Of a DNA stretch of 64,000 bases, positions 3,575-54,909 are shown in pieces. A program made the translations under genes and the position numbers. The stretch spans positions 164 through 64,163 of the forward strand of contig JBAZYH010000004.1 of assembly GCA_041659365.1 (NCBI GenBank), written 5' to 3'. The stretch is from Minisyncoccota bacterium. Lineage in GTDB: Bacteria; Patescibacteriota; Minisyncoccia; Phycocordibacterales; GWA1-40-21. Numbering within the stretch: position 1 is the first letter of the stretch; each line of letters opens with the position of its first letter. The notes beneath the pieces were generated by a model. The model ran no database searches. It was not told the origin of the DNA and worked only from the letters and a program-made list of their open reading frames with translations.

Positions 3575-3699
3575 CCCATTATAAATTTTAAAATTATTAA
3601 TTTGCGACTATTTTTAATTTAATATCAGTAATATTTATTCGTCGTTATTTTTTTATGTTAAATTTATAACGGGATAAATATTTTTTAACAAAAATAAAT

Positions 3700-4512
3700 T
3701 TAAATTTTTTCTAATTTTATTTTTTTAATTTTCTCAAAAGCTAGTAGTACTATTATAACAGCAACCCAGATTATTTCCAAAGCCATAAGAGATCCTCTTG
3801 CGTTACCAACCATAAAGAAATTAAATAGCGCATGTGTAATTATGGCGCAGACGAGTCCTGTGAGTGTCCATCCAAACCTACTCATTCTCTTGTTAAAGAA
3901 GTTAAAACCTATAAACATACCAACAGTCACAGATGATACGGTGTGAAGTAGTGTTGCTCCTATAAAGCGCATATTACCTGTAAGTACACTATTTGTAATC
4001 TGTCCTTTTGTTAGTGGGTCTATTAAAAAAAGCATATTTTCTACTGCAGCAAAACCAAGAGCAACAGTTATCATGTATATCATTGGATCTATTGCCTCGT
4101 CATCATCTTTTGATCTCAAAACAATAAAATAGGCTATTATAAATTTGAAAAACTCTTCTATTATTGGGGCAAAGAATATAACTATTATAAGTCTGTTTAA
4201 TATAATTTTTTCTTGTGAGGATATATGTTCAAGCCAAATTAGTAAGGGTTTTAAAAAATCTCCAGACAAAAGATTTCTAATATTTATTTCAGAAGAAAGT
4301 TTTTCAAAATATAAAGAACAAAAAACAGCAATAATACCTCCTATGAAAGCAATTATTATCATTAATTTTGGCTCAGGTTTCTCTTTGTCTTCTTTAAGCC
4401 AAAAAATAAGCCAGACAATCGCAGGTAAGATCCCGCCGATAAGGGCGTATATTAATGTTGTAATGTTTATGTCCACTAGTATTATTTTAACTCTTAATTG
4501 GCCAACTTTCAA
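3700..4512 (-). CDS. PrsW-like/CPBP-like intramembrane protease (multi-TM)
   Basis: Motifs EEFFK (EExxK), FIGATLLH and HALFN (HxxxN) in a polytopic membrane protein. Confidence 0.5.
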   Translation of the reverse strand: MKVGQLRVKIILVDINITTLIYALIGGILPAIVWLIFWLKEDKEKPEPKLMIIIAFIGGIIAVFCSLYFEKLSSEINIRNLLSGDFLKPLLIWLEHISSQEKIILNRLIIVIFFAPIIEEFFKFIIAYFIVLRSKDDDEAIDPMIYMITVALGFAAVENMLFLIDPLTKGQITNSVLTGNMRFIGATLLHTVSSVTVGMFIGFNFFNKRMSRFGWTLTGLVCAIITHALFNFFMVGNARGSLMALEIIWVAVIIVLLAFEKIKKIKLEKI

Positions 4513-8968: not shown

Positions 8969-10261
8969 TTATAAACTCAAATTTCCATTGGCTTTAAAAT
9001 CTGTTTCTGGTTTTTTGCCAGATAAAATATTTAGATATCCCGCGACTGCTATCATAAAAGCATTGTCCGTAGAAGCACTAAATTCTGGAATCATAAGTTC
9101 AACATGAATATCTTCTGCGAGTTTTGCAAAATCACTTCTTATTTTTTTATTTGCACTTACACCACCACCGATTATTATAGTTTGTGCTCCGTATTGTTCA
9201 ACGGCTTGTTGGGTTTTTTTAATTATTACTTCTACTACAGCATCTTCAAATTCTCGAGCTATTTCTTGTTTGATAGAATCAGTTAATTTGGCTAAAACAT
9301 TTTTTTCAGAAAAATGTTCGCCCGACTCGTCTTTCTGTGAAGACGAGTTTAGGGTAATTTTTTGTACTGTATAAAGTACAGCAGTTTTTATTCCTGAGAA
9401 AGAAAAATTTAAATCATGAGAATGTATCATTGGACGAGGAAGAGGGAACGCGGATTTACGCGGACCAGACGCAGAATCATGCGGATGTTCAAGTCTATCC
9501 TTTTCTGCGAGTTTAGATATTTGTGGACCACCAGGATATGGTAGACCTAGTATTCTTGCAACCTTATCAAAAGCTTCTCCGATAGCATCATCTCTTGTGC
9601 TTCCAATTATTTCATATTTTTGGTTTTCTTTACTTAGGACAAGTTGGGTATGCCCACCGCTTATGAGGAGAGCAATGACGGGATAATTAGGGGATTGAAT
9701 GTTGAATGTTGGATGTTGAATATTAGTTTCTTTACATTCACTATTCAATATTCCACATTCTCGTTGTAGCATGGCTACAACGACATGTCCTTCCATGTGG
9801 TTTACAGGGATTATAGGGATGTTCCAGGCTTCTGATAATGCTTTTGCGAAGCATATACCAACCCAGAGTGCTGGTTCAAGCCCAGGGCCATTGGTGACCG
9901 CTATAGCATCTATGTCTGGTTTTTCTATTTTCTCAATGAGTTCAATTAAATCTTCAGATAGATCATTTTCTCTTGCTAGAATTTCTTTTATTCTTTCTTT
10001 TCTTGAATCTCGAATCATAAATCTTGAATCCTTTTTCATCCCGGCTTCCTCAAGACATTTTTCAAGTTGGGGAGTAAGGTTTAGAGCATGTTCCCTTTTT
10101 GCCATCATAGGATAAACACCACCATACTGTGCATGTATAGCTATTTGAGAATATAATTGGTTCCCAAGTATTTTTATTTTTGAACCAACAGAATCATTTT
10201 CTGTTTCAATAATACAAACCCCTGTTTCATCGCATGATGTTTCTATGCCTAAGATTTTCAT
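8969..10261 (-). CDS. tsaD: tRNA N6-adenosine threonylcarbamoyltransferase TsaD (Kae1/Gcp family) with lineage-specific insertions
   Basis: MKILGIETSCDETGVCII, HMEGHV, SGGHTQL, GEAFDKVARILGLPYPGGPQISKLAE, GGVSANKKIR. At 430 aa it is about 90 aa longer than typical, with inserted low-complexity segments. Confidence 0.9.
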   Translation of the reverse strand: MKILGIETSCDETGVCIIETENDSVGSKIKILGNQLYSQIAIHAQYGGVYPMMAKREHALNLTPQLEKCLEEAGMKKDSRFMIRDSRKERIKEILARENDLSEDLIELIEKIEKPDIDAIAVTNGPGLEPALWVGICFAKALSEAWNIPIIPVNHMEGHVVVAMLQRECGILNSECKETNIQHPTFNIQSPNYPVIALLISGGHTQLVLSKENQKYEIIGSTRDDAIGEAFDKVARILGLPYPGGPQISKLAEKDRLEHPHDSASGPRKSAFPLPRPMIHSHDLNFSFSGIKTAVLYTVQKITLNSSSQKDESGEHFSEKNVLAKLTDSIKQEIAREFEDAVVEVIIKKTQQAVEQYGAQTIIIGGGVSANKKIRSDFAKLAEDIHVELMIPEFSASTDNAFMIAVAGYLNILSGKKPETDFKANGNLSL

Positions 10262-10393
10262 AAGTTAAAGATTAACATTTTTTTGGGGAAAGGGAAGATG
10301 GCGAAAATTAAGGTGATATTTATTGTGTTTCTTTTCTGGACTTATTATTATAAAAGTGGTAGTTTTTGTTAAACAACAAGAAAGGAGTTCTTT

Positions 10394-10687
10394 ATGAGTT
10401 CAATCAGAATTATCTCAATCCCTCCTGGGCAAGCTCCGGAATGGGTTCGTAAAGAATGGATTGGAGTTGAAATCCCGCTTTCCGAACAGAAATCGAGTGG
10501 AATTCAGATGGGAGTTCGTGGTGGTGCAGCCAAAAATGTTGGTGGGTACCAGGTGGAAACTAGTAAGGCTATTGAAGCTTTGCAGAAGAAATCACCGATG
10601 GCCGCGAAGTGGTGGAAAGATAACGTACCGCTCGTCTCAATAGTACACCTTGTTTTTTCCAAAGAGGTGTGCGAGCTTGTATCGTAA
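10394..10687 (+). CDS. Hypothetical protein in a locally GC-rich (~50%) segment
   Basis: Composition differs from the flanks. Followed by terminators at 10712-10740 and 10932-10958. Confidence 0.35.
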   Translation: MSSIRIISIPPGQAPEWVRKEWIGVEIPLSEQKSSGIQMGVRGGAAKNVGGYQVETSKAIEALQKKSPMAAKWWKDNVPLVSIVHLVFSKEVCELVS

Positions 10688-11072
10688 CTGTCGTTTGAAT
10701 TTCAAAACTGCTGAACTAAAAATCCAGCAGTTTTTTTATATTAAATATTTTTACGGGGAAGTTCGACACTTACAGTGTCAGTACCTTCATTGGATATTTT
10801 TATTGGTATGCTTCGCATCTATAATAATGTGAGCCGCAATAATTTGTTCGTCGTCACTCACAAATTTTCCAGCCCCGGACTCAGCTTTTTTCCTACTGAA
10901 AAAATATGCTTCCGTCTTCACAAAAGCGAAAAAGACTGGAGAAGTCCAGTCTTTTTAAAATCCGCTTTTGTGAGCCTTCTCGAACTGTGACCTTGTGGTT
11001 CCTTACCCCATAATGTTATTTATAATGTTTTTAGTGTAACAGTTTAACCCTTCTCGTGAGACTATAAAATGG

Positions 11073-11390
11073 CTATTGTTTGTTTCCTATAATTATTTTG
11101 AAAGAGTCACTATCATCTTTGGGGTTTTCAATAATTTGACCGTTTATTGGCTGAGAATAAACAGCTTGATTAACTCCATTAACTTTATAGTTATTTCTAT
11201 CTAGATATTCTTTAATTTGGGATGCAAAATTATAAGCTTCACCATCACCTAATACAGAAGTTACATTAACAGAAGATCCAGTAGGAATTAATTGCTTGAG
11301 CTGTGTTTCTAGTGATGAATCTAATTTTCTTGGTTGGGGACCTAGATATACATTATTATTACCATTTATGTTGTTTTGATTGATATCCAT
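11073..11390 (-). CDS. Hypothetical N/Q-rich protein (105 aa). A 59-aa membrane-anchored ORF lies just upstream at 11400-11579 (-).
   Basis: ORF only. Confidence 0.3.
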   Translation of the reverse strand: MDINQNNINGNNNVYLGPQPRKLDSSLETQLKQLIPTGSSVNVTSVLGDGEAYNFASQIKEYLDRNNYKVNGVNQAVYSQPINGQIIENPKDDSDSFKIIIGNKQ

Positions 11391-11781
11391 ATATTTACTT
11401 TGTTAAGAATGCATAAATATAGTTAGCAACAATTGAAATTATAATTCCTATGATAAAACCTTCTCCGCGCATTTTCCAAGTAAACTTATTGTTTGTTTTT
11501 GTTTCATTACCTGAATCAGAAAGATGGGCGTTGTTCTCACCATTTGTATTATTTTGTTTTATATTTACAGACATAAATTTAAATATTACATATTTATAAT
11601 ACTTCTCGTGTTAGCACTTGTTGGTGACCCCTTTGTCCCTAGAATGGAACACCGTTCAAAGTGAAGTAAAACGATGGAATGAAGTATTTAATTTTTATAA
11701 AATAATTCCATCTTACTCAATATAAGCTTATAAATACGAATAATAAATAATATTTAATTACCGTTAAGGGTATAGAACACT

Positions 11782-12273
11782 ATGAATACTACATTTAAAC
11801 AATTAAATACTGAAACAGAAAAAATCAGCATTAAAGATTTTTTACTAAAACCATCAGCTTATTATCAAGTCGTTCCTAATCATTTTATAAAAATTGGTAG
11901 ACCAACATTTGATGGAAAAAATGAAAGTGAAGTAGTTGCGAAATTACAGTATGCCTTTTCTATAGGAGCAAAAGTCTCAGAAGCCTGTTGTTTTGCGGGT
12001 ATTTCAAAAGATTCATTCCATAGATATTGTAAAAGATATCCAGAGTTTCGCGACAAAATAGAGCTTTTACAAAACACACCAATTTTTATTTCTAGAGTTA
12101 TTATTTATAATGCAATATTAAATAATGATTTAAAAATATCCAAGTGGTATCTTGAAAAGAAATGTCCTGAAGAATTTTCTTACAATAGACCACTTATGAT
12201 TAAATTGAAACAAAAAGAAGAAAGAATAGAATATCTGGAAGGAATTTTAAAAAATAAGAAAATTTTGTTTTAA
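11782..12273 (+). CDS. HTH-domain protein (terminase small subunit-like or transposase-like HTH)
   Basis: AKVSEACCFAGISKDSFHRYCKRYPEF is a helix-turn-helix, similar to the TerS-like HTH of CDS 28182-28598. Confidence 0.45.
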   Translation: MNTTFKQLNTETEKISIKDFLLKPSAYYQVVPNHFIKIGRPTFDGKNESEVVAKLQYAFSIGAKVSEACCFAGISKDSFHRYCKRYPEFRDKIELLQNTPIFISRVIIYNAILNNDLKISKWYLEKKCPEEFSYNRPLMIKLKQKEERIEYLEGILKNKKILF

Positions 12274-12276
12274 TTA

Positions 12277-12771
12277 TTGGGATATAAAATTTGTGTTAAA
12301 ATTAGAATTATGAAAATAAAAGAAATTAAAAAAAGAATTAATAATGCATTAGATAGACTTTACGATGTTGATCAATTTATAATTGATAATGATCTCTGTG
12401 AAAGATGTATAAATTTTAGATTTGCTCTTCATTTGCAAAATAATTTTCCAGAATATTTTGTTGATTGTGAGTACAATAAATCTCATATTGGTTTAATTAA
12501 TGATCAAAAAAGAGTTTTGGATACAGGAAATGGTAACTTTATCGATATTATTATTGGAAAACGTTCTAGATCACCAAAAGATGATTTTATCTGTTTTGAA
12601 ACTAAAAAATCGAATAGTAATGATGTTTTAGGAATAGAGAACGATATTAATAAATTAAAAATATTAACAAGTGGTGGTCAATTTGATTATAAATATGGTT
12701 TTAAAATAGTTTTTTCATTATTAAGAAAAGATGTCATACTTGAAACTTATAAAAAAGCAAAGTTATTATAG
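12277..12771 (+). CDS. Putative PD-(D/E)xK-family nuclease
   Basis: FIDIIIG ...(17 aa)... ICFETKK fits the D...ExK spacing, with an upstream conserved E (ERCINF). Confidence 0.35.
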   Translation: MGYKICVKIRIMKIKEIKKRINNALDRLYDVDQFIIDNDLCERCINFRFALHLQNNFPEYFVDCEYNKSHIGLINDQKRVLDTGNGNFIDIIIGKRSRSPKDDFICFETKKSNSNDVLGIENDINKLKILTSGGQFDYKYGFKIVFSLLRKDVILETYKKAKLL

Positions 12772-12857
12772 AGTAATGGGCTATTTTGTGGACAATTACG
12801 GATTGCTTATAATAAAAAAATATCGTAATATGTAGATGTAAAGTTGTTGTTTTTAAA

Positions 12858-13997
12858 TTGTATTTTAAAATTACGAAAATGGCGTCCATAAATCTTATAG
12901 AAAAAATAACTAATCTTTTTGTAGAAGGTAAACATCAACAAATAATAGATGTTTTGAGTGAGGAATCTGTCAGATTAAAAAAAACTGGTAAAATGGTAGC
13001 CAGTAAAAAACTTCAAAACATTATTAAAAAAATACCTATTAATAAAAGTTCTTTTGTTGGAGCATCCTCTAATCATTCTGTAAAATCAATAGATATTTCA
13101 AATTATCGTGAAAATAATCTAGTAAAAAAATATTATTCTCAAGTTACACCAGAACAAGTGATTCTAAATATTTCTGCAAAAGATAAAATAGAAAATCTTT
13201 TTAAAGAATGGGAAGATTTTGATAGACTTTCTAAACATAATCTCTTCCCAACAAATAGAATTTTATTTTATGGTCCACCTGGTACAGGAAAAACTTTGTT
13301 AGCAAATGCAATTGCACAACACTTAGATTTTCCACTTGTTTTAGTTAGGTTGGATGAATTAATCTCTTCATTTTTAGGTGAAACTGGTAAAAATATTAGA
13401 GATATATTTGAAATTGCGTCAAAAGAACCCGTGGTGTTATTTTTAGATGAAATAGATACTATTGCTAAATTTAGATCTGATGAAAAAGAATTAGGTGAAT
13501 TAAAAAGAGTTGTTACAGTTTTGTTACAAAATATTGATTTTTTTCCAAATCAATCAATAATTATTGGCGCAACAAATCACGATGGTATTCTCGATAAAGC
13601 AATCTGGAGAAGATTTCCATTAAAATTGAAATTGGATTTACCCGATATTAATAGTAGAAAATTATTGTTTAAACTTTTTTTAAAAGGAACAGATCATAGT
13701 ATTGATTACGATTTAATAGCAAACATTACCGAAGGGTTAAACGGATCAGAGATTTTTGATATTGTTCAAAATGCAAAAAAACAATCAATACTTACAAACA
13801 GTAATAAGGTTACAAATATAATTATTGCCCAATCTTATCTAATAACATATAATATAGAAAAACCTCATATTGGATCGACTAAAAAAACAATATATGCTTT
13901 GTGTCAAAAACTCAAAGATTCTGGTTTAAAACTAAGAGAAATTGAAACTATATCTGGTATAGCATATACAACTCTTCGAGATAATTTAAAAAAATAA
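12858..13997 (+). CDS. AAA+ ATPase (classic AAA family), ietA-like
   Basis: Walker A ILFYGPPGTGKTLLANAIA, Walker B VLFLDEIDTI, second region of homology (IIGATNHDGILDKAIWRRF). Confidence 0.8.
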   Translation: MYFKITKMASINLIEKITNLFVEGKHQQIIDVLSEESVRLKKTGKMVASKKLQNIIKKIPINKSSFVGASSNHSVKSIDISNYRENNLVKKYYSQVTPEQVILNISAKDKIENLFKEWEDFDRLSKHNLFPTNRILFYGPPGTGKTLLANAIAQHLDFPLVLVRLDELISSFLGETGKNIRDIFEIASKEPVVLFLDEIDTIAKFRSDEKELGELKRVVTVLLQNIDFFPNQSIIIGATNHDGILDKAIWRRFPLKLKLDLPDINSRKLLFKLFLKGTDHSIDYDLIANITEGLNGSEIFDIVQNAKKQSILTNSNKVTNIIIAQSYLITYNIEKPHIGSTKKTIYALCQKLKDSGLKLREIETISGIAYTTLRDNLKK

Positions 13998-16354
13998 TGT
14001 ATACCTTACTTATTCCAAAAGAAAAAAGTAGACGGGAGAAAAAAACAGGTGGCGGACCATTCTGGAAAGCTTATTGGGAAAAAGAAGTTGAAAAAAATCC
14101 AACCTATTATGCTTCTCAGTACAGTAAGCGTATTTCAAATTTAGATTCTGCTATTGATGGTTTTAGAAATAAATATTCTAAAAAGGATAGGAGATATTAT
14201 GCTGAAATTAAATTAGACGAAAGAGTGTCGTCAAAATCTACTGAGCCAACGAAATTGTGGATAGAAGCAGGACTGACAGTTGTTGAAACCAAGGAGCGCA
14301 ATGGAGAAACTTTTTTTACGATAAGTGGATCACTCGAAGATTTTGCAAAATTTAAAAAAATTACAGGTTCTGCAACGTTCGATACTGCTCATAGTGGTAA
14401 AGGTAAGATTCAAGATATGTCTAGGCAGGTATTCGCTGTTACTGAAATCTATGATAAAAATGATTCAATTAATAACAGAATTTCTGTACATCTTAGAGAG
14501 TTGATAAAAGATAATTACTCTAAACAACTTGATTGTGTTATTACTATACATTATGAACGAAATATATCTGAATACGATATAATTTTTAATGAAATTGAGC
14601 AAAAAATTGGGGTTGGTAATCTTCATAAGAGAGACAAAGAATTTTTTATAAGTAATATGTCGTATCGTGCAAATGTTCATATCAAACAAATTATTGATTT
14701 ACTTACTGATTCAACGTACGGCTATATTGCCCGCATAAAAATAAATCCAGAATTTATTTTTCAAAGGTCTACTCCAAGTATAAATCTAACTTCAGTTCAA
14801 ATAGGTAAATTATTAACTGATGAAAAAGTTGTTTTTATTGATAGTGGAATAGATAATAAAGTAATAAATCCTTTTATTTCCCACTCAATGAATTTTTTGT
14901 CTGGTTCAGATATTCCTGACAAAAAACACGGCACAAGTGTGGCTAGTCGATTTTTATTTGGAAATAATTTTTTTGAAAAAGTATCAAAAGGAGAAAAAAT
15001 AGATCCAACTGCAAAAATTATTGATGTTCAGATTTTACATAAAGACCCTGATGGATCTTCATCTGTTGATCCTGATGTTTTAATGAAATCAATAAAAGAA
15101 TCAACAAATAAAATAGATGACGTCACTATATATAATTTATCAATTGCTTGTAAAGAGCCTATAAACGAACAAAATGATATTGATGATTCAACTGCTTTAA
15201 TCGATAGTATCTCGAGTAAAAAAGATATTCTCTTTATTACTGCAGTTGGAAATCAAAGTGGTAATTATACACTTGGTTACAAAGATATTTTTAAAGATGA
15301 ATCTTGTAATATATCATCACCTTCTGATGCAATAAATGCTCTTTCGGTTGGTTCTATATCTGAAATTGCTCATAAAGATACTTTGTGTGGCACTGTTGAT
15401 TACCCATCTCCTTTTACAAGAAAGGGTGGTTTTCGAAATGATATTAAAAAACCAGAACTTGTAGCGTATGGTGGTAACATCGAAAAAGATATAAATAATA
15501 AATATGATATAGCACATCTTATTACATCTACAAATAAATATGGCGTTGACATAATGAGCTTGGATGAATTTTCTAGAGATATTGGAACTAGTTTAAGTGC
15601 ACCATTAATTACAAGGAGTGCTACTCTAGTATTAGATTATTTAAAAAAATCAAATCTCTCACAACAAATTCCATTATTTAAATACAATAAAGCTAATCTA
15701 GTTAAGGCATTGCTGATACATTCAACCTCCAGAATTACTCAAGCAAAAATTAAAGACGATACTCTTAAAAGAGCGTATGGTTTTGGAAAAACAGATCATA
15801 TGTCAGCTCTGTTTGATGATACAGAGGATACAGTTACTATTACGTATGCTGATGCTATTAGTTTTTCAGAGAAAAAACAGAAAATTTTAATAAAACTGCC
15901 AGACTATCTTTTGGGTCAGAATATTGAGTTTGTCTTTACACTTGTTTATAATCCACCAGTTAATTCTAATTTTAAAGAATATAAAATGGTCAATCTTCAA
16001 GGTTCTGTTGGTCTTGTGTTTCCAAAAATGGAAAATGGAAAACCAAACGGAAAAATGGATGTAAAACCTTTAGCACCATCACATAGTTGGGATAATTATA
16101 AATCATCAGATTTTAATACAATTCACTATAAAAAAAATATTAAAAAATTAGATTATCTTGATTTACAAATTGGTATTCAAATGACAGTATCAAGTCAGCT
16201 TTTGAATGAAATACCAGAAGATAAAATTTTACAAAATTACGCAATCGTTCTTTCAATAAAAGATATGTCAAAAAAAGGTAAACTTAGAAGCCAGTTGCTT
16301 CTTAAAAATCAACTCGTTGAATTAATTGAAAATCAGGTAAAAATTACAATATAG
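13997..16354 (+). CDS. Subtilisin-like S8 serine peptidase with a long N-terminal domain, ietS-like
   Basis: Catalytic triad in D-H-S order: VVFIDSGID, HGTSVASR, GTSLSAPLITR. The start is adjacent to the ATPase stop. Confidence 0.8.
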   Translation: MYTLLIPKEKSRREKKTGGGPFWKAYWEKEVEKNPTYYASQYSKRISNLDSAIDGFRNKYSKKDRRYYAEIKLDERVSSKSTEPTKLWIEAGLTVVETKERNGETFFTISGSLEDFAKFKKITGSATFDTAHSGKGKIQDMSRQVFAVTEIYDKNDSINNRISVHLRELIKDNYSKQLDCVITIHYERNISEYDIIFNEIEQKIGVGNLHKRDKEFFISNMSYRANVHIKQIIDLLTDSTYGYIARIKINPEFIFQRSTPSINLTSVQIGKLLTDEKVVFIDSGIDNKVINPFISHSMNFLSGSDIPDKKHGTSVASRFLFGNNFFEKVSKGEKIDPTAKIIDVQILHKDPDGSSSVDPDVLMKSIKESTNKIDDVTIYNLSIACKEPINEQNDIDDSTALIDSISSKKDILFITAVGNQSGNYTLGYKDIFKDESCNISSPSDAINALSVGSISEIAHKDTLCGTVDYPSPFTRKGGFRNDIKKPELVAYGGNIEKDINNKYDIAHLITSTNKYGVDIMSLDEFSRDIGTSLSAPLITRSATLVLDYLKKSNLSQQIPLFKYNKANLVKALLIHSTSRITQAKIKDDTLKRAYGFGKTDHMSALFDDTEDTVTITYADAISFSEKKQKILIKLPDYLLGQNIEFVFTLVYNPPVNSNFKEYKMVNLQGSVGLVFPKMENGKPNGKMDVKPLAPSHSWDNYKSSDFNTIHYKKNIKKLDYLDLQIGIQMTVSSQLLNEIPEDKILQNYAIVLSIKDMSKKGKLRSQLLLKNQLVELIENQVKITI

Positions 16355-16624
16355 TGTTTGGTTTTCTGGGATTATTTTATATAAACCTTGCATTAAAAGT
16401 GTATATTGATATAATCAAATGACACAATTTAATAAGTAGAGACCTAACCCTTTTAAGATTTATTTTGAAAGGTATGGTCAAAAACGCACGATACAAAAAA
16501 CCCTCACATTAGGGCGTATCGTGCGTTGTATTGGGAAACTAATACAGAGGTTTAAAAACCTTCCTAGTGTGGGGCTTTTTCGTATCTACACACTAGACAT
16601 TATTAGTCTATTAACTTAAAAAAA

Positions 16625-17671
16625 ATGAAAGTGAAGCACGATATCACTCTCGGTGAATTAGGAGTAGTTTGTGGTTTAATTATTATTGTAATTTTTGCTA
16701 TTATTTATTGGTATATAGGAATACCTGCTTTAGTAATTTGGTATCTATTTAAAAAGAGAAAAAATAAATTTCCACTAAAAACAAATTTGATTATAGCTGG
16801 TGGCACTTTAGGTGTTGTATTTTCTGTCTTTTTCATAAATTTATATATTCATAGAACACCAAGTTTAACTATTTCTGAACCACAAGATTTAATAACTCTT
16901 CAGGTTGCAACCACTACGATTAAAGGGAAGGTTAGTCCGTCTTCAAGCAATTTAACTGTTAATGGTATAAGTATTAAGGCAAATTTCGGTGGACATTTCA
17001 TATATGAGGCTTCTTTAAAAAATGAAAATAATACCTATACTTTTATTGCAAATAATAAAGATAAAAGTCAAACACAAACACTAACAATTAAACGTATATT
17101 TACTGCAGATGAATTAGCTCAAATAGAACAAGCAAAAAAAGAGGCACTTGCTAAAGCGGAAAAAGATAAAGCAGATGAATTAAAAATAAGACTACAAAGA
17201 GAAATTGATAGTTTTAATAAGCCATTTGATAATAGTATTTATCGAAATGATATAACATCTCTTACTCTTGAAGTTATGTTATTTAGTGGTTGGGCAAAGT
17301 GGATTACAGAAGGAAAAGAATCTAATAATACAGAAGTTAAAAATTTAGCGAACCAATTAGAACAAAAGGTTTCCCAACGACAAATTAAAGAATTTCCTTT
17401 AATGAGAAAAACTTACGCTAAATTAATCGGAAATTTGTTATGGGAGCAAGATATATCAGTAGAAACACTTGGTGCTACAAATAAAACGATTCAACTTACA
17501 GGTGGAATTTTTGTGGCTAATAAAAGTAAATCAACGATTCAGGAACAATTATCTAAACAATTGAGGTTATTTAGATTTACAACAGCAAATTATAAGTGGT
17601 ATGAGTATGATGAAACATATACTTATTATGATATGGATAGTTACGTGGATAGTAAGGTAATTGAGTTATAA
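16625..17671 (+). CDS. Membrane-anchored protein with coiled coil (two N-terminal TM helices, lysine-rich coiled coil)
   Basis: TM helices at residues about 12-40 and 55-75. AKKEALAKAEKDKADELKIRLQREI coiled coil. Confidence 0.4.
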   Translation: MKVKHDITLGELGVVCGLIIIVIFAIIYWYIGIPALVIWYLFKKRKNKFPLKTNLIIAGGTLGVVFSVFFINLYIHRTPSLTISEPQDLITLQVATTTIKGKVSPSSSNLTVNGISIKANFGGHFIYEASLKNENNTYTFIANNKDKSQTQTLTIKRIFTADELAQIEQAKKEALAKAEKDKADELKIRLQREIDSFNKPFDNSIYRNDITSLTLEVMLFSGWAKWITEGKESNNTEVKNLANQLEQKVSQRQIKEFPLMRKTYAKLIGNLLWEQDISVETLGATNKTIQLTGGIFVANKSKSTIQEQLSKQLRLFRFTTANYKWYEYDETYTYYDMDSYVDSKVIEL

Positions 17672-17681
17672 AAAATAATTT

Positions 17682-18065
17682 ATGAATAATGTTATCTACA
17701 CTTATGGGCATAGTGCCCGTGCTTTTTCAGAGTTCTTAAAAGGGCTTAAAGAAAATAATATAGAAATATTAATAGATTGCAGAACTCACCCACATAGTCG
17801 CTTTTGCCCTTGGTTCAATCAAAAAGCCCTCTCAGAGGGTTTAAATAAGGAAAGTATCACTTATCTATTTAAAGGTAAAAACCTTGGTGGTATGGGGGAA
17901 AATATTGATTATGAAAAAACTATAGGCGAACTAGTAGAAATGGTTAAAAAGGGAAAGAAGGTTTGTGTTATGTGTAGTGAAAAAGATTATAGAAAATGTC
18001 ATAGATTTTTAATGCTCACTCCTTCATTTGAGACAATGGGTGTAAAAGTTGAACATATAGAGTAA
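17682..18065 (+). CDS. DUF488-family protein
   Basis: MNNVIYTYGHSARAFSEFLKGLKENNIEILIDCRTHPHSRFCPWFN matches the DUF488 N-terminal signature (IYTIGHS...LVDVR..P.SR). Confidence 0.6.
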   Translation: MNNVIYTYGHSARAFSEFLKGLKENNIEILIDCRTHPHSRFCPWFNQKALSEGLNKESITYLFKGKNLGGMGENIDYEKTIGELVEMVKKGKKVCVMCSEKDYRKCHRFLMLTPSFETMGVKVEHIE

Positions 18066-18075
18066 TATATATCTT

Positions 18076-18822
18076 ATGAAAGACAACTTCGTTAAAAAAT
18101 TACTTGAGCGATTAAGTCAAAAGCAAACCATTATAAAAAGAAATTATGGAGAAAATTTATATTTAGAAAATCGTAAAAAGTTAATATCTTTATTATTAAG
18201 TCACCCATATTATATTGAGGGAATTATTAAATTAAAAAATAGTATAAAAAATAGTAAAATTCCTGTTGGGGAAAGTAATGAAAAAGTATTTTTTTGGGAG
18301 CATTTCAATGATAATAATGTTCGTCTCATAAGAAAAAAGATTCAAAAATTAATATCAGAATTTAATTTTAATGTTTTATATATTAATGATATAGAACAAT
18401 TTACTTATGATTATATAATTTGTCCGTCTAGAATTGAAAAAATTTCAAAAGAGAATATACCCAGTTTGGTTATAGTTAATACAGACGAAGATAGAAAAAT
18501 TAATGCTCATTTATTTTCTTCAAATTCTCGATATATACAAATTTTTGACTGGACAACACTTAAAGATATACAAGAAAATTGGGATAAAATTAAAGAGGGT
18601 ATTTTAGAAAAATCTATAGAAATAGATGTGAGTGATGACCTTTCTAAACTTCTTTGGAAATTAAAATTAGAAGGAAAAAATATTAAAGAAATGACTTATG
18701 ACGTGAATACTAAATACAAATATTTGTTATCCAAAATAAAAGATAACCTCTTAGGCGAAGATAATACGAGGGTATATATACATCGCTATGAGACAAGGTT
18801 AAAAAAGTTAAAAGATTTTTAA
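18076..18822 (+). CDS. Hypothetical protein (248 aa)
   Basis: ORF only. Confidence 0.35.
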   Translation: MKDNFVKKLLERLSQKQTIIKRNYGENLYLENRKKLISLLLSHPYYIEGIIKLKNSIKNSKIPVGESNEKVFFWEHFNDNNVRLIRKKIQKLISEFNFNVLYINDIEQFTYDYIICPSRIEKISKENIPSLVIVNTDEDRKINAHLFSSNSRYIQIFDWTTLKDIQENWDKIKEGILEKSIEIDVSDDLSKLLWKLKLEGKNIKEMTYDVNTKYKYLLSKIKDNLLGEDNTRVYIHRYETRLKKLKDF

Positions 18823-19034
18823 AATATTACAGGTGACAATATCAACACCTGTAATATCGTAAAAAAGAATATTTTCCTAAGATATAAGAATGATATCTAA
18901 GGAAGATTTTAAAAAAGCTCTCGGAGAAAAGATTCATTCTATTTCAGAAGAAGATATAGAAAAACTGAGAATTGGAATGGATGAAATGGCGGAAATCCTT
19001 TTTGATATTTGGAATGATAAAATAATTAAATTAG

Positions 19035-20756
19035 ATGAAGGAAAAACAATTTCAACAACAAAAAATATGTAGTTTTGGAGTTGCTAGAGTTAGTTCTGAT
19101 AAACAAGCCCAAGAAGGTGAAAGTTTTGACGACCAAAGAGATGCGATTTCTCGCTTTGCTGAAAAGAAAGGTTGGGATAATGTTTGCACTTTTCAGTTTT
19201 CTCTTTCAGGTAGAACTGAGGTTGCCGAGCTTATTAAAAGAATAGTTGATTTTTTAGAGAAAACTCCACATAAAATAAAATACTGTATATTTAAAAAAAT
19301 TGACCGCATAACTAGAGCTGGAACTGATGGGTATTCTGAGATAAAAATAGCTCTCGAAAAATATGGTGTAGAAATAATTGATACTTACGAAATAATTCAA
19401 CCAGAAAGAAACACTCTGGAACATTTAGGTTTTGATTATGATTGGAGTCATTATTCTCCTACAGGGACAGCAATTTTAATGGAAGTTAATAGAGCCAAGG
19501 ATGAAACGCGGGATATTTTAACTAGGATGATTGGACAGGAAATAAGTCTTGTTCAACAAGGATATCGAGTCCGACAAGCTCCTGACGGTTTTAAAAATGA
19601 AACGATATATGTTAATGGTAAGAAAAAATGCATAATCGTTCCTAACTCACCAAGATGTGATTATTATCTAAAAATATTTGAATTGAGGGTTCAAGGAAAT
19701 CTCACTGATGAGGAAATTGTAAAACATATAAACGCTATCGGTTTTAAATCAAGACAAAAAATTATTTGGAATATTCACAGAAACCCTATCGGAAAAACTG
19801 AAGGGACGGCTTTAACAGTTAAGCAATTACAAAGAATTGTTCAACGTCCCGTTTATGCTGGTTTTAATTATGAAAAATGGACGCATTATAAGCTTATCAA
19901 GGGTCAATACGATGGAATTGTGTCAATTGATACTTTTAATAGAGCAAATCGTGGAAAAGTTTTTATTAAGGAAAATAATGATAAAAGTTATGAATTAATT
20001 CATAATTACTCAGCAATAAGACAATCTTCAAGAAACAAAAATAATCCATTATTTCCTTTTAAATGGGTATGCTGTGATAAATGTAAAAAACCATTTTTAG
20101 CAAGCTCTCCAAAAGGTAAATCTGGGGAGGGGTTTCCTGTATATCATTGTGGTGTAAAAAATAATTTATCTAGAAATCACAAATATTATGGTATACCAAA
20201 AGATGTTTTAGATTCAAATGTTGAAATCTTACTTAAATCTTTAGAGTTTAATGATGAATATCTAGATGTATTTGAAAAAGTTCTTATAAATAAATATAGA
20301 GAACGAGAAAAAGAAGTGGTTCAAGACTCATCAAATATAAATAGAAATATTTCTAATCTACAAAGTGAACAAGTAAATTTAATAAATCAATTAATTAATA
20401 TTGAGAGCAAGATTGCTCGTAAAAATATTGAAGAAAGGATTGAGAGACTAGAAATTGATATTAATAAAGCTCGTTCGCAGAGAGATGAAATGGAAATAAA
20501 AGAGCACGATATTAAATCTTATATTAGAAGTGCAAAATATTTAATGGAACACCCAAGAGAATTGCTTATAGAACCTGATGATTTTAATATTCAGAAAGCT
20601 TTAATGAACTTAGTTTTTGATACTATGCCGACCTACTCTGAAATAATCAATGGAACACCCAAATTAGCTTTAATTTTCAAGCTATCAGAACAATTTAAAA
20701 TAAACAAAAACCTATTGGTGACCTTACGGGGAATCGAACCCCGATTACAGCCTTGA
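19035..20756 (+). CDS. Large serine recombinase (integrase). Its 3' end overlaps tRNA-Glu.
   Basis: N-terminal resolvase catalytic domain (GVARVSSDKQAQEGESFDDQRDAI), recombinase domain, zinc ribbon (CDKCKKPF...YHCG), coiled coil. The last about 40 nt are the tRNA-Glu 3' part. Confidence 0.85.
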   Translation: MKEKQFQQQKICSFGVARVSSDKQAQEGESFDDQRDAISRFAEKKGWDNVCTFQFSLSGRTEVAELIKRIVDFLEKTPHKIKYCIFKKIDRITRAGTDGYSEIKIALEKYGVEIIDTYEIIQPERNTLEHLGFDYDWSHYSPTGTAILMEVNRAKDETRDILTRMIGQEISLVQQGYRVRQAPDGFKNETIYVNGKKKCIIVPNSPRCDYYLKIFELRVQGNLTDEEIVKHINAIGFKSRQKIIWNIHRNPIGKTEGTALTVKQLQRIVQRPVYAGFNYEKWTHYKLIKGQYDGIVSIDTFNRANRGKVFIKENNDKSYELIHNYSAIRQSSRNKNNPLFPFKWVCCDKCKKPFLASSPKGKSGEGFPVYHCGVKNNLSRNHKYYGIPKDVLDSNVEILLKSLEFNDEYLDVFEKVLINKYREREKEVVQDSSNINRNISNLQSEQVNLINQLINIESKIARKNIEERIERLEIDINKARSQRDEMEIKEHDIKSYIRSAKYLMEHPRELLIEPDDFNIQKALMNLVFDTMPTYSEIINGTPKLALIFKLSEQFKINKNLLVTLRGIEPRLQP

Positions 20757-20790
20757 AAAGGCCGTGTCCTAACCGTTAGACGATAAGGCC
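20716..20790 (-). tRNA. tRNA-Glu(UUC), CCA encoded
   Basis: Minus-strand read: ggcctta-tc-gtct-aacggtta-ggac. Anticodon stem cggcc/ggctg, loop ttTTCaa. T-arm cgggg-ttcgatt-ccccg. Acceptor 3' strand taaggtc, then acca. Confidence 0.85.
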
Positions 20791-20796
20791 AAACTA

Positions 20797-20970
20797 TTTA
20801 AATACCAAACAAATCAAACCCCGAATTTACCTTCTTACAGAAGCAGTATACCTGTTCTGTTTTTTATTTCACTATCGTTCATATAAAACTATCACAGGTT
20901 TTGAATTGCTCCATGTATTCGCAATTCAACCTCTCAAAGGCCCGTCTTCTAACCGTTAGACGATAAGGCC
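20797..20970 (-). pseudogene. Degenerate tandem pseudo-tRNA-Glu. The 5' 30 nt are about 90% identical, then an insertion of about 95 nt (hairpin), then a degenerate T-arm.
   Basis: + strand 20941-20970 cccgtcttctaaccgttagacgataaggcc against the tRNA cognate gccgtgtcctaaccgttagacgataaggcc. Downstream aattcggggtttgattt against aatcggggttcgattcc. Confidence 0.6.
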
Positions 20971-21086
20971 AATAATCTTTATTTTAGTATACGGTGTATT
21001 GTATAAAGTATAAAAAAATAAATTTCAAATACCGAAAAAATATAACATTTTTTTGTAAAAAAAGCAAAATAATGATAACCTTTATT

Positions 21087-21183
21087 AGTCAAATTTGGAG
21101 AGGTGGCTGAGTGGTTGAAGGCACCGCATTCGAAACGCGGCAAGCTCGAAAGGGTTTCGGGAGTTCGAATCTCCCTCTCTCCG
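21087..21183 (+). tRNA. tRNA-Ser(CGA), class II with a long variable arm
   Basis: ggagagg-tg-gct-gagtggttgaa-ggc. Anticodon loop ttCGAaa. Variable arm caagctcgaaagggtttcgg. T-arm gggag-ttcgaat-ctccc. Acceptor 3' strand tctctcc. Confidence 0.8.
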
Positions 21184-21197
21184 CAGAGTCGTGATAG

Positions 21198-53399: not shown

Positions 53400-53408
53400 A
53401 TAAAATAA

Positions 53409-53744: not shown

Positions 53745-53748
53745 TAAA

Positions 53749-54093: not shown

Positions 54094-54183
54094 AAGTGTT
54101 TATAACTTATACATTGATAAATATACGTATAAGTATTATAATTTATTAGAAGTTAGAGGTCGTTAATTTATTTTTAAAAAAAG

Positions 54184-54495: not shown

Positions 54496-54568
54496 TATAA
54501 TTATTATAGTTTTTATTGTATAATTTAATAGTCGTTTATTTATTAGAAATAATTAAAAATTTGTTTTT

Positions 54569-54907: not shown

Positions 54908-54909
54908 AA

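What the first reader, a model, noticed from the sequence alone, without database searches (positions are those of the whole stretch)
11782..18065. Defense-island-like cassette: putative PD-(D/E)xK nuclease, AAA ATPase plus S8 subtilase pair (ietAS-like), membrane coiled-coil protein and DUF488
A classic AAA ATPase (Walker A, Walker B, second region of homology) is immediately followed by a 785-aa subtilase, its start adjoining the ATPase stop at 13997. The subtilase has D-H-S triad motifs DSGID, HGTSV and GTSLSAP and a long N-terminal domain. This is the architecture reported for the ietAS antiphage pair. Upstream sit an HTH protein and a small protein with a D...ExK nuclease-like motif. Downstream are a TM/coiled-coil protein and a DUF488 protein. 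All lie on one strand and end at a serine integrase, consistent with an integrated defense island.
Basis: partly seen in the sequence, partly recalled or inferred. Interest (0 to 1): 0.6.

Follow-up and report, generated by a model that had tools for sequence, protein, structure and literature searches.

The report
IetAS defence pair on CPR island

Summary
All ORFs and motifs are at the stated coordinates, and the ATPase stop and protease start share one base (TAATG at 13995-13999).

The IetAS reading is supported.
- PADLOC IetA and IetS profiles match full-length (5e-95 and 1e-64).
- The AAA-then-S8 order recurs in every CPR relative examined and in 69 of 88 loci from genome and viral scans.
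- Asp282, His311, Asn419 and Ser532 are invariant.
- The protease has no signal peptide.
- Neighbours in relatives are restriction-modification systems and other defence genes.
- NCBIfam equivalog cut-offs are not reached, so this is a divergent CPR clade.

The small upstream protein is a PD-(D/E)xK nuclease related to PD-λ-3 component A. The "HTH protein" is terminase-small-subunit-like.

The cassette is not one operon. A LOOT RNA (Rfam RF03000, 84 bits, 16441-16562) has its own promoter-like element. It precedes the membrane-protein, DUF488 and 248-aa genes. In 8 of 8 LOOT copies examined, a membrane-protein gene follows. Two of those copies are on viral contigs without IetAS.

The island is about 10912-20745. 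It ends at a serine integrase that overlaps tRNA-Glu.

Verdict: a new member of a known kind. The IetAS mechanism is still unsolved.

The parts
10912..20745 (.). Probable extent of the integrated island (approximate ends)
   Evidence: An independent Logan contig (L090, SRR18595301, 9834 bp) is 100% identical to exactly this interval and breaks at both ends. GC is 0.23-0.30 inside against 0.32-0.38 in the flanks. Relatives L007, L008 and L010 have tRNA-Glu and tRNA-Ser next to tsaD with none of these genes.
11073..11390 (-). 105-aa protein, no family match
   Evidence: ORF. No hit in Pfam, PHROGs or PADLOC. Present on the island contig L090.
11395..11574 (-). 59-aa protein with a C-terminal hydrophobic segment, no family match
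11782..12273 (+). Terminase-small-subunit-like HTH protein (163 aa)
   Evidence: PHROG 4102 'terminase small subunit', E 4.9e-12. Its HTH stretch resembles the TerS-like gene that precedes the large terminase on viral contig L172. No Pfam or PADLOC hit.
12310..12771 (+). PD-(D/E)xK nuclease, homologue of PD-λ-3 component A (153 aa)
   Evidence: PADLOC PD-Lambda-3_A, E 3.3e-16. E31, D79 and E97xK99 are invariant in 29 homologues. AlphaFold2 model has pLDDT 88. Best Foldseek hits are all restriction-endonuclease-fold proteins (3ijm, Cas4 SSO0001, CinB, DrdV, NucC), with weak E-values from 2.7e-3.
12879..13997 (+). ietA: classic-clade AAA+ ATPase (372 aa), the putative antitoxin or regulator
   Evidence: PADLOC IetA 5.1e-95, profile positions 3-369 of 374. 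NCBIfam IteA 3.9e-87, 293 bits. In 372-aa numbering, Walker A K138, Walker B D190/E191, pore loop F165-L166-G167 and R244/R245 are conserved; all but F165 are invariant in 32 homologues. The model shows an N-terminal helical bundle, AAA core, lid and three C-terminal helices. Nearest structures are p97 D2, FtsH, PAN and Vps4.
13997..16354 (+). ietS: cytoplasmic S8 subtilase (785 aa), the putative toxin or effector
   Evidence: PADLOC IetS 1.1e-64, residues 47-767 on profile positions 44-727 of 749. NCBIfam IteS 2.1e-51. D282, H311, N419 and S532 are invariant in 24 sequences that include Pseudomonas-type IetS. No hydrophobic segment. One-base overlap with ietA.
16388..16415 (+). Promoter-like element for the LOOT unit (TTGCAT, 16-nt spacer, TATAAT)
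   Evidence: Read from the sequence. A -10-like hexamer lies upstream of the LOOT copies whose flanks were read, and a conserved AAYTKAATA follows it in most of them. This is inference; no transcript data exist.
16441..16562 (+). LOOT RNA (Rfam RF03000)
   Evidence: 83.8 bits against a gathering score of 46.4, full length 1-121 of 121. On 8 copies, 92.5% of cells are paired and 20 of 28 pairs carry compensatory changes. Slid controls give 32-48% paired and 4-9 pairs.
16564..16596 (+). Extra 3' hairpin beyond the Rfam LOOT model, with GGGCTTTTT at the 5' arm and loop
   Evidence: A hairpin is predicted at this place in each of the 7 copies folded (weakest in L088). The stem sequences differ, and a G-run followed by a T-rich tract recurs at the 5' arm and loop. 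No T-run follows the stem, so it does not look like an intrinsic terminator.
16625..17671 (+). 348-aa membrane protein: two N-terminal TM segments, Ig-like Glucodextran_B domain, coiled coil, unknown C-terminal domain
   Evidence: Pfam Glucodextran_B 6e-11. TM windows. 40% identical over residues 23-199 to a protein downstream of IetAS in L088.
17682..18065 (+). DUF488 protein (127 aa)
   Evidence: Pfam DUF488 1.4e-14. PADLOC candidate PDC-M45B 7.5e-28. 62-63% identical homologues occupy the same position (LOOT, TM gene, DUF488) in L001 and L087.
18076..18822 (+). 248-aa protein, no family match
   Evidence: No hit in Pfam, PADLOC, NCBIfam, PHROGs or PDB sequences.
18890..19072 (+). 60-aa protein just before and overlapping the integrase gene; possible directionality factor
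   Evidence: A similar 53-aa gene precedes the serine recombinase in L001 (E 2e-4). The function is inferred from position only.
19035..20756 (+). Large serine recombinase (573 aa)
   Evidence: Pfam Resolvase 3.8e-9 plus Recombinase. PHROG 95 integrase 1.7e-28. Its last 41 nt overlap tRNA-Glu.
20716..20790 (-). tRNA-Glu(UUC), probable attachment site
   Evidence: ARAGORN and Rfam. Identical to the tRNA-Glu of relative L008, which has no island.
20934..20972 (.). Degenerate second copy of the 5' half of tRNA-Glu
   Evidence: 89% identical to 20756-20792. Absent from L007, L008 and L010. Possibly a scar of site-specific integration; unresolved.

Best explanation
The core of the finding (12879-16354) is a two-gene IetAS system carried on an integrative island of about 10 kb in a Candidatus Paceibacterota (CPR) genome.

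**The two proteins**
- IetA is a classic-clade AAA+ ATPase. It has intact Walker A and B motifs, arginine fingers and an aromatic pore loop, so it is a substrate-threading unfoldase of the p97/FtsH/PAN type.
- IetS is a cytoplasmic subtilase with an intact Asp-His-Ser triad, flanked by large N- and C-terminal domains.
- The two genes overlap by one base and are probably translationally coupled.

**Likely mechanism, by analogy with characterised IetAS systems**
- There the protease is the toxin and the ATPase the antitoxin.
- Defence in those systems is abortive infection, triggered by a phage protein.
- The likely mechanism here is that IetA uses ATP to keep IetS inactive in uninfected cells. 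A phage trigger then relieves this, and IetS proteolysis stops the cell before phage release.
- The same toxin-antitoxin behaviour would also stabilise the island.

**Other modules on the island**
- A PD-(D/E)xK nuclease homologous to PD-λ-3 component A and a TerS-like HTH protein lie upstream.
- A separate transcription unit lies downstream. It has a promoter-like element, a LOOT RNA leader, then the membrane-protein, DUF488 and 248-aa genes.
- The island ends at a large serine integrase inserted at tRNA-Glu.

**Shown:** family identity, catalytic residues, gene pairing, island context, and the presence and structure of the LOOT RNA.

**Inferred:** toxin/antitoxin roles, abortive infection, the trigger, and the operon structure.
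For: **Family identity**
- PADLOC IetA 5.1e-95 and IetS 1.1e-64, both full length.
- NCBIfam IteA and IteS are the top hits.

**Active sites**
- Invariant D282, H311, N419 and S532 in IetS.
- Invariant K138, D190, E191, R244, R245 and pore-loop L166-G167 in IetA, with F165 conserved.
- IetA structural neighbours are p97 D2, FtsH, PAN and Vps4.
- No signal peptide or TM segment.

**Pairing**
- AAA immediately upstream of S8 in L001, L002/L003, L004/L005, L087, L088 and L089.
- The same arrangement in L091-L094 and in 69 of 88 scanned loci overall.

**Defence neighbourhoods in relatives**
- Type I restriction-modification, an MmeI-like enzyme, D12 methylases, NERD, Fic, and MazG plus an SLFN-like helicase.

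**Literature**
- IetAS is a protease-toxin / ATPase-antitoxin pair.
- Protease activity is needed for defence, and ietA mutants cannot be cloned (PMC13069673).
- It shows an abortive-infection phenotype and is triggered by SPβ YosG (10.1101/2022.08.27.505566).

**Island**
-.

**LOOT unit**
-.
Against: - NCBIfam equivalog cut-offs are not reached (293 bits against 510 for IteA; 175 against 900 for IteS).
- The precomputed Pfam N-terminal families PF27210 and PF27160, which mark canonical IetS-type proteins, are not recorded for any protein of the CPR clade. The clade is therefore divergent and may differ in sensing.
- No experiment exists for any CPR IetAS.
- No solved IetA or IetS structure was detectable by sequence or fold.
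- The exact left end of the island and its att sites are not resolved.
Confidence: 0.8

Rival explanations
1. The pair acts mainly as an addiction (post-segregational killing) module that stabilises the island, as IetAS was first described on an Agrobacterium Ti plasmid. Phage defence would be secondary or absent in this host.
For: [quoted passage not shown] Here it sits on a mobile island with an integrase. Relatives also lie beside tyrosine or serine recombinases.
Against: Several relatives sit in chromosomal defence clusters with restriction-modification systems and no nearby integrase in the stretch seen (L002, L089, L004). The two roles are not mutually exclusive.
Confidence: 0.25
2. The whole cassette from 11782 to 18822 is one multi-gene system. 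The nuclease, LOOT RNA, membrane protein and DUF488 would be obligatory accessory parts of IetAS, in the way the helicase is in ietHAS.
For: LOOT lies 78-233 nt after ietS in 4 of about 12 CPR IetAS loci. DUF488 follows in 3 of them. Three-gene IetAS variants exist (ietHAS).
Against: The nuclease homologue is absent from the other IetAS loci, and elsewhere it has unrelated neighbours. LOOT has its own promoter-like element. LOOT also occurs on viral contigs L172 and L188 with no IetAS in the stretch held. Six CPR IetAS loci have no LOOT. The three DUF488-bearing loci are the closest relatives (73-100% IetS identity), so shared descent explains the linkage.
Confidence: 0.1
3. The pair is a housekeeping protein-quality-control ATPase with an unrelated secreted protease that happens to be adjacent.
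For: The AAA core resembles FtsH, PAN and Cdc48.
Against: The best profile matches are IetA and IetS over the full length, by more than 40 orders of magnitude. There is no signal peptide, TM segment or FtsH protease domain. The pairing is conserved. The pair is absent from close relatives of the host at this locus. The context is a low-GC mobile island.
Confidence: 0.02

Closest known systems
IetAS (Gao et al. 2020 anti-phage system; originally the ietA/ietS stability module of an Agrobacterium Ti plasmid)
   Same: AAA+ ATPase gene immediately followed by a large cytoplasmic S8 protease gene of about 750-800 aa. Full-length matches to IetA and IetS profiles. Intact catalytic motifs. Location on mobile or defence islands.
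   Different: The host is a CPR/Patescibacteria bacterium. Scores fall below the NCBIfam equivalog cut-offs. The IetS N-terminal region lacks the precomputed PF27210 and PF27160 hits seen in proteobacterial-type IetS. No functional data exist.
ietHAS (Liu-DS4; IetAS with an SNF2 helicase; PMC13069673)
   Same: It shows that IetAS cores recruit extra genes. The protease is essential and the ATPase behaves as an antitoxin.
   Different: There is no helicase here. The adjacent genes are a small PD-(D/E)xK nuclease and a TerS-like protein, and they are not conserved with the pair.
PD-λ-3 (Vassallo et al. 2022; an abortive-infection system containing a PD-(D/E)xK domain)
   Same: The 153-aa protein matches the PD-Lambda-3_A profile (3.3e-16) and has the E...D...ExK signature and fold. 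PD-λ-3 is listed with a PD-(D/E)xK domain (PMC10952713) and acts by abortive infection (PMC13190303).
   Different: No other PD-λ-3 component was detected beside it. One survey reported PD-λ-3 only in Proteobacteria. Neighbours of its homologues vary.
LOOT RNA motif (Rfam RF03000; found by comparative genomics, typed as an sRNA of unknown function)
   Same: Full-length match at 84 bits. The multi-helix structure is kept through compensatory changes.
   Different: Each copy seen here has a promoter-like element, and most share a 5' AAYTKAATA stretch. An extra 3' hairpin lies outside the Rfam model. Each copy lies 57-84 nt upstream of a gene for a membrane protein on a mobile element or phage contig. 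This looks more like a 5' leader than a free-standing sRNA.
Phage-inducible chromosomal islands and other small integrative islands that carry defence cargo
   Same: About 10 kb. Integrase at a tRNA. A TerS-like gene without a large terminase or structural genes. Defence cargo.
   Different: No replication, repressor or capsid-remodelling genes were recognised. The integrase is a large serine recombinase. No helper phage is known. The resemblance is only suggestive.

Membership tests
IetAS | An AAA+ ATPase that matches IetA profiles over its full length | tested here: met
   PADLOC PDLC02196, E 5.1e-95, residues 10-378 on profile positions 3-369 of 374. Three further IetA models match at 1e-43 to 1e-82.
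IetAS | An S8 serine protease that matches IetS profiles, with an intact catalytic triad | tested here: met
   PADLOC PDLC02197, E 1.1e-64, residues 47-767. D282, H311, N419 and S532 are invariant across 24 homologues.
IetAS | The two genes are adjacent, on the same strand, ATPase first, and conserved as a pair | tested here: met
   One-base overlap at 13997. Same order in 6 further CPR loci and in 69 of 88 loci from genome and viral scans. Six of the 19 exceptions are cut by a contig end.
IetAS | Scores reach NCBIfam's curated equivalog cut-offs for IteA and IteS | tested here: not met
   IteA 292.8 bits against a cut-off of 510. IteS 175.1 bits against 900. This is a divergent subfamily, not an equivalog of the curated exemplars.
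IetAS | The protease is intracellular (no signal peptide or membrane anchor) | tested here: met
   No 19-residue window with Kyte-Doolittle score above 1.6 in IetA or IetS.
IetAS | The protease is toxic and neutralised by the ATPase; the pair protects against phage by abortive infection | not testable with these tools
   Known only from the literature for other members.
PD-λ-3 | Component A (PD-(D/E)xK nuclease) | tested here: met
   PD-Lambda-3_A 3.3e-16. Invariant E31, D79 and E97xK99. Restriction-endonuclease-like fold.
PD-λ-3 | The complete system, with any further component next to A | tested here: inconclusive
   No other PD-λ-3 profile matched any neighbour. I could not verify the gene composition of PD-λ-3 from the papers held.
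LOOT RNA (RF03000) | Covariance-model score above the gathering threshold over the full model | tested here: met
   83.8 bits against 46.4, positions 1-121 of 121.
LOOT RNA (RF03000) | Helices maintained by compensatory changes | tested here: met
   8 copies give 92.5% paired cells and 20 of 28 pairs with double changes. None of 500 shuffles reaches this, and slid controls give 32-48%. The central stem also covaries in the single-sequence folds.
Integrative element with a large serine recombinase | Resolvase catalytic domain plus Recombinase domain in a protein of more than 500 aa at the island edge | tested here: met
   Pfam Resolvase 3.8e-9 and Recombinase 8e-4 (just below the Pfam cut-off). 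PHROG integrase 1.7e-28.
Integrative element with a large serine recombinase | Defined attL and attR, and an empty attB in related genomes | tested here: inconclusive
   No flanking direct repeat of the tRNA 3' half. Relatives lack the island, but their synteny is rearranged. Contig L090 suggests ends near 10912 and 20745.
Phage satellite (PICI-like) | Integrase plus a packaging-redirection gene plus replication and regulatory modules | tested here: inconclusive
   Only an integrase and a TerS-like protein were recognised. No primase/replicase or repressor was found.
PADLOC candidate PDC-M45 | Components A, B and C together | tested here: inconclusive
   The DUF488 protein matches B (7.5e-28) and weakly C (2e-6). 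No gene matches A. The candidate itself is unvalidated as far as I know.

The most novel reading that the evidence does not exclude
The LOOT RNA is not a free-standing sRNA. It would be the structured 5' leader of a cassette led by its own promoter on CPR phages and integrative islands, followed by one or more membrane-protein genes (here also DUF488). That cassette would be an RNA-controlled superinfection-exclusion or defence unit that repeatedly travels directly behind ietS and may be functionally coupled to it. This would give a first functional context to an orphan RNA class, and a first candidate RNA-regulated immunity module in CPR bacteria.
Probability: 0.15. Interest if true: 0.7.

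Novelty: new member of a known kind. Interest (0 to 1): 0.38.

Why it matters
IetAS is a validated anti-phage system whose mechanism is still unsolved. A compact, divergent clade from CPR bacteria widens the sequence space available for structural and mechanistic work. These organisms have tiny genomes, an episymbiotic lifestyle and, as far as I know, few recognised defence systems. The finding also shows that they acquire abortive-infection modules on small tRNA-targeting islands.

The by-product may be more useful. The orphan LOOT RNA now has a reproducible genomic context. It has its own promoter-like element and lies directly upstream of membrane-protein genes on mobile elements and phage contigs. 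That turns 'unknown sRNA' into a testable leader or regulator hypothesis.

Tried and rejected
**Attachment sites and the empty site**
- Searches for att-type direct repeats of the tRNA-Glu 3' half at the left end found nothing. Only 9-13-nt chance-level similarities were seen by eye.
- Exact-protein look-ups of the flanking 97-aa ORF and of TsaD, meant to find an empty site in other samples, found no record.
- The ABC-transporter look-up gave only a 3.4 kb contig that stops before the island.
- TsaD-anchored metagenome loci showed relatives without the island. Local synteny is rearranged, so the exact junction could not be read.

**Unavailable resources**
- PF27210 and PF27160, the IetS N-terminal families in the precomputed annotation, are not in the local Pfam copy. 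Their absence in this protein could not be retested.
- The supplement of Weinberg et al. 2017 that describes LOOT is not held. What its discoverers said about gene context is unverified.

**Negative or weak searches**
- Pfam on isolated IetA and IetS terminal regions gave only noise. There was one weak HTH hint for the IetA C-terminus (E 0.15). The AlphaFold2 model does show three short C-terminal helices.
- Two DNA-pattern hits for LOOT on viral contigs were false positives or too weak (L171, L183, L185).
- A marginal LOOT-like hit in background locus L021 was not confirmed by Rfam.
- The upstream genes of the related islands L001 and L087 match no PHROG or PADLOC family. They are not similar to the TerS-like or nuclease genes here.
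- The partner gene of the nuclease homologue P0133 is unrelated to the TerS-like protein.

**Rejected idea**
- LOOT as an obligatory IetAS component was rejected as the leading reading. It occurs without IetAS on viral contigs and is missing from half of the CPR IetAS loci.

Full report

Yes.
- 11782-12273 (163 aa)
- 12277-12771 (164 aa from a TTG; the database protein starts at ATG 12310 and is 153 aa)
- 12858-13997 (379 aa from a TTG; the annotated protein starts at ATG 12879 and is 372 aa)
- 13997-16354 (785 aa)
- 16625-17671 (348 aa)
- 17682-18065 (127 aa)
- 18076-18822 (248 aa)
- 18890-19072 (60 aa)
- 19035-20756 (573 aa)

The named motifs are present. The ATPase has GPPGTGKT and FLDEID. 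The protease has DSGID 282-286, HGTSV 311-315 and GTSLSAP 530-536.

The ATPase stop codon (13995-13997) and the protease ATG (13997-13999) share one base (TAATG). This arrangement is typical of translational coupling.

Pfam confirms AAA (1e-31), Peptidase_S8 (7.5e-25), DUF488 (1.4e-14) and Resolvase plus Recombinase.

GC is 0.23-0.30 across 11-19 kb, against 0.32-0.38 in the flanks.

**2. Where the window comes from**

The protease, nuclease and ATPase are each 100% identical to proteins of a 66.9 kb contig. NCBI annotates that contig as 'MAG: Candidatus Paceibacterota bacterium'. This is a member of the Candidate Phyla Radiation (Patescibacteria).

**3. The ATPase-protease pair is IetAS**

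*Profile matches*
- Against PADLOC-DB, the ATPase matches four IetA models. The best is 5.1e-95, covering residues 10-378 on profile positions 3-369 of 374.
- The protease matches seven IetS models. The best is 1.1e-64, covering residues 47-767 on profile positions 44-727 of 749. The match therefore includes the long N- and C-terminal regions, not just the S8 core.
- In NCBIfam the top hits are 'anti-phage ATPase IteA' (3.9e-87) and 'S8 family anti-phage peptidase IteS' (2.1e-51).
- The next hits for the ATPase (PAN, FtsH, CdvC, CDC48) are 47 or more orders of magnitude weaker.
- Both NCBIfam scores are below the strict equivalog cut-offs (293 against 510 bits; 175 against 900 bits).
- I therefore place the pair in the IetAS family as a divergent subfamily, not as an equivalog of the curated exemplars.

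*Catalytic competence*
- An alignment of 24 proteases runs from 74% down to 17% identity and includes Pseudomonas, Nitrincola and Methanothrix proteins.
- In that alignment D282, H311, the oxyanion N419 and S532 are invariant.
- In 32 ATPase homologues, using 372-aa numbering, these are invariant: Walker A G132-T139 (K138), Walker B D190/E191, second-region R244/R245, and L166-G167 of the pore-loop motif F165-L166-G167.
- Neither protein has a hydrophobic segment, so the protease is cytoplasmic.

*Structural neighbours*
- The ATPase's closest solved relatives by sequence are Cdc48/p97 D2 domains.
- An AlphaFold2 model (pLDDT 84) shows an N-terminal three-helix bundle, a disordered linker, the AAA core and lid, and three short C-terminal helices at 335-369.
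- Those C-terminal helices may be an HTH. The only sequence support is a Pfam hint at E 0.15.
- Foldseek places the model among p97, FtsH, PAN/Rpt and Vps4. All of these are substrate-threading unfoldases.
- No IetA or IetS structure is detectable in the PDB copies searched.

**4.

The protease has a clade of about 37 CPR-type homologues at 31-76% identity. Contigs were fetched for six of them.

| Locus | IetS identity | Neighbours of the AAA-S8 pair |
|---|---|---|
| L001 | 74% | D12 methyltransferases and recombinases |
| L087 | 73% | MmeI-like enzyme |
| L088 | 48% | Tyrosine integrase next to a tRNA |
| L002/L003 | 47% | Type I restriction-modification system and a GIY-YIG/DUF4357 gene |
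| L089 | 40% | Type I restriction-modification, Fic, NERD |
| L004/L005 (Dojkabacteria) | 33% | MazG plus an SLFN-like helicase |

- An AAA gene of 364-379 aa ends within a few bases of the protease start in every one of the six.
- A degenerate-pattern scan of one genome per species, plus IMG/VR, gave 88 loci. In 69 of them an IetA-like gene lies directly upstream on the same strand.
- Six of the 19 exceptions are truncated by a contig end. Most of the rest are Bacteroidota-type loci.
- The 'housekeeping FtsH plus secreted protease' alternative is therefore rejected.

**5. How it most likely works**

*What the literature establishes for other members*
- IetAS was first found as a plasmid-stabilising toxin-antitoxin pair, with the protease as toxin and the ATPase as antitoxin.
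- Protease activity is required for defence.
- Plasmids carrying mutated ietA cannot be constructed.
- The anti-phage mechanism 'remains unknown'. These four points come from PMC13069673, April 2026.
- A Bacillus cereus IetAS behaves as an abortive-infection system.
- That system becomes toxic when the SPβ protein YosG is co-expressed (10.1101/2022.08.27.505566).

*What the sequence adds here*
- IetA has everything needed for ATP-driven threading: the pore loop, Walker motifs and arginine fingers.
- IetS has an intact triad.

*My inference*
- An IetA hexamer holds IetS in check in an ATP-dependent way, by engaging a terminus or the N-domain of IetS.
- A phage product, or the collapse of ATP or protein homeostasis, releases IetS.
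- Released IetS then degrades host or phage proteins and aborts the infection.
- The same logic makes the pair an addiction module for the island. The two roles are compatible.

**6. The other genes of the 'cassette'**

(a) *The 153-aa protein*
- It matches PD-Lambda-3_A (3.3e-16).
- 29 homologues, mostly from CPR and other uncultured bacteria, share invariant E31, D52-C-E-Y, D79 and E97-x-K99.
- Its model (pLDDT 88) has the α-β-β-β-α-β core.
- Its best Foldseek hits are all restriction-endonuclease-fold proteins (3ijm, Cas4 SSO0001, CinB, DrdV, NucC). Their E-values are weak, from 2.7e-3, with TM scores around 0.5.
- PD-λ-3 is listed as containing a PD-(D/E)xK domain and acts by abortive infection.
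- No second PD-λ-3 component was detected here.
- A homologue elsewhere (P0133) is coupled to an unrelated 264-aa gene in another mobile or defence context.
- I treat it as an independent nuclease module of uncertain completeness.

(b) *The 163-aa 'HTH protein'*
- It matches PHROG 4102, terminase small subunit (4.9e-12).
- Its HTH resembles the TerS-like gene that precedes a large terminase on viral contig L172.
- The island has no large terminase or structural genes.

(c) *The region after ietS*
- It is not a silent spacer. Rfam finds a full-length LOOT RNA at 16441-16562 (83.8 bits against a gathering score of 46.4).

**7. The LOOT RNA unit**

*Where LOOT is found*
- LOOT is also present 78-233 nt downstream of ietS, on the same strand, in L001, L087 and L088.
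- In L091 (Nomurabacteria, IetS 76%) it lies 1.5 kb downstream, after two extra genes.
- In L093 (IetS 40%) it lies on the opposite strand, 3.3 kb away.
- It is absent from L002/L003, L004/L005, L089, L092, L094 and L095. It is also absent from the non-CPR IetS loci of the genome and viral scans.
- In 960 kb of unrelated TsaD-anchored loci only one marginal hit appeared, and Rfam did not confirm it.
- Two DNA-pattern scans of IMG/VR recovered two further genuine LOOT copies on viral contigs. L172 scores 57.9 bits and lies next to a terminase. L188 scores 87.6 bits. Neither has an IetAS in the stretch held.

*Structure*
- On the eight copies, 92.5% of cells pair and 20 of 28 pairs show compensatory changes.
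- With the 3' partners slid by 1-3 columns, 32-48% pair and 4-9 pairs show such changes.
- The central stem has a different, complementary sequence in each of the four copies folded singly.

*Three features recur across the copies*
- A -10-like hexamer lies upstream of each of the seven copies whose flanks were read. In the window the element is TTGCAT, 16 nt, TATAAT at 16388-16415. A conserved AAYTKAATA follows it in most copies.
- An additional hairpin lies immediately 3' of the Rfam model. Its stem sequence differs between copies, and a GGGCTTTTT-like tract sits at its 5' arm and loop. No T-run follows it.
- A gene for a protein with an N-terminal transmembrane segment starts 57-84 nt after the end of the Rfam match, in 8 of 8 cases.

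| Copy | Gene that follows LOOT |
|---|---|
| Window | 348-aa protein |
| L001 | 115 aa |
| L087 | 127 aa, zinc ribbon plus TM |
| L088 | 242 aa, with PHROG 'superinfection exclusion' hits |
| L091 | 62 aa |
| L093 | 88 aa |
| L172 | 164 aa |
| L188 | 180 aa |

*Operon reading*
- In the window, the membrane gene, DUF488 and the 248-aa gene are separated by only 10 nt each. They are probably co-transcribed behind LOOT.
- The order LOOT, TM gene, DUF488 recurs in L001 and L087.
- My reading is that LOOT heads a separate, moron-like unit of CPR mobile elements. It is more likely a 5' leader than a free sRNA.
- Its frequent position behind ietS reflects co-carriage on related islands rather than membership of IetAS.
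- Sampling is small, and six of the eight copies were found through IetS, so this is a lead and not a result.

**8. The island**

- The serine recombinase gene runs 41 nt into tRNA-Glu(UUC) (20716-20790, minus strand).
- A Logan contig from a different run (SRR18595301) is 100% identical to window 10912-20745 and ends at both points. This is what an assembly graph does at the edges of a variably present element, or at a conserved tRNA.
- Three relatives (TsaD 62-67% identical) have the divergent tRNA-Glu/tRNA-Ser pair directly beside tsaD. They have none of the island genes.
- The pair is inverted relative to tsaD compared with the window, so a rearrangement accompanies the insertion.
- The window's tRNA-Glu is identical to that of L008.
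- A degenerate 37-39-nt copy of its 5' half lies at 20934-20972. It exists only in the window. It may be a scar of integration by this or an earlier element.
- No direct repeat of the 3' half marks the left end. From general knowledge, this is acceptable for serine integrases, which need only a 2-bp crossover core.
- Exact att sites remain undefined.

**9. Comparison with what is known, and novelty**

- The pair is a member of the known IetAS kind. It is new in host (CPR) and in sequence (a divergent clade of at least 37 protease clusters and more than 100 ATPase clusters).
- It does not show a new architecture.
- The nuclease and TerS-like genes and the LOOT-led operon are neighbours, not demonstrated components.
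- The most interesting by-product is the reproducible context of the orphan LOOT RNA.

**10. Verdict**

- Observation: confirmed.
- Interpretation: supported.
- Novelty: new member of a known kind.
- Interest: moderate-low for the IetAS call itself, raised somewhat by the LOOT observation and by the unsolved IetAS mechanism.

Noticed in passing
window 16441-16562 (+), with a promoter-like element at 16388-16415 and an extra hairpin at 16564-16596: A full-length LOOT RNA (Rfam RF03000, 84 bits) lies between ietS and the membrane-protein gene. In 8 of 8 LOOT copies examined, a gene for a TM protein starts 57-84 nt after the end of the Rfam match. Four copies sit directly after ietS, and two are on viral contigs without IetAS in the stretch held.
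   Followed up: yes
window 20934-20972: A degenerate duplicate of the 5' half of tRNA-Glu lies 143 nt beyond the intact gene. It is absent from three related genomes. It may be a scar of integration at this tRNA; the origin is unresolved.
   Followed up: partly
window 8969-21184 compared with L007, L008 and L010: In relatives the tRNA-Glu(-)/tRNA-Ser(+) pair lies directly beside tsaD. In the window the pair is inverted relative to tsaD and separated from it by about 10.4 kb (a 97-aa ORF plus the island). A local rearrangement therefore accompanies the insertion.
   Followed up: partly
window 10394-10687 (+): A 97-aa ORF with higher GC lies between tsaD and the island. It has no Pfam, PHROG or PADLOC match and no counterpart in the related loci. 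The exact sequence is not on record in the gene-position index.
   Followed up: partly
window 53031-55215 (+): Six consecutive small genes (101-122 aa) encode similar proteins with a signal-peptide-like N-terminus and two hydrophobic segments. The region has very strong GC skew. They look like a tandem paralogue array of pilin-like or secreted membrane proteins.
   Followed up: no
window 57323-57658 (+): Bacterial RNase P RNA class A (119 bits).
   Followed up: no
L172 (IMGVR_UViG_3300022868_001602) 3261-5810: A viral contig carries a TerS-like HTH gene and a large terminase. On the opposite strand it carries a LOOT RNA followed by a 164-aa TM protein. L188 carries a related zinc-ribbon/TM protein behind its LOOT copy.
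   Followed up: partly
L008 6866-9420: In a relative without the island, the DNA next to the 3' end of tRNA-Glu holds a trypsin-like protease-like ORF, small membrane proteins and an MBL-fold-like ORF. These labels were read by eye from the translations and not checked against profiles. In L010 the same position holds housekeeping-looking genes. The tRNA-Glu flank may be a variable hotspot.
   Followed up: no
window 8969-10261 (-): TsaD here is 430 aa, against 395 aa in L008 and 412 aa in L010. The relatives differ in length through lineage-specific insertions, which are common in CPR proteins.
   Followed up: no
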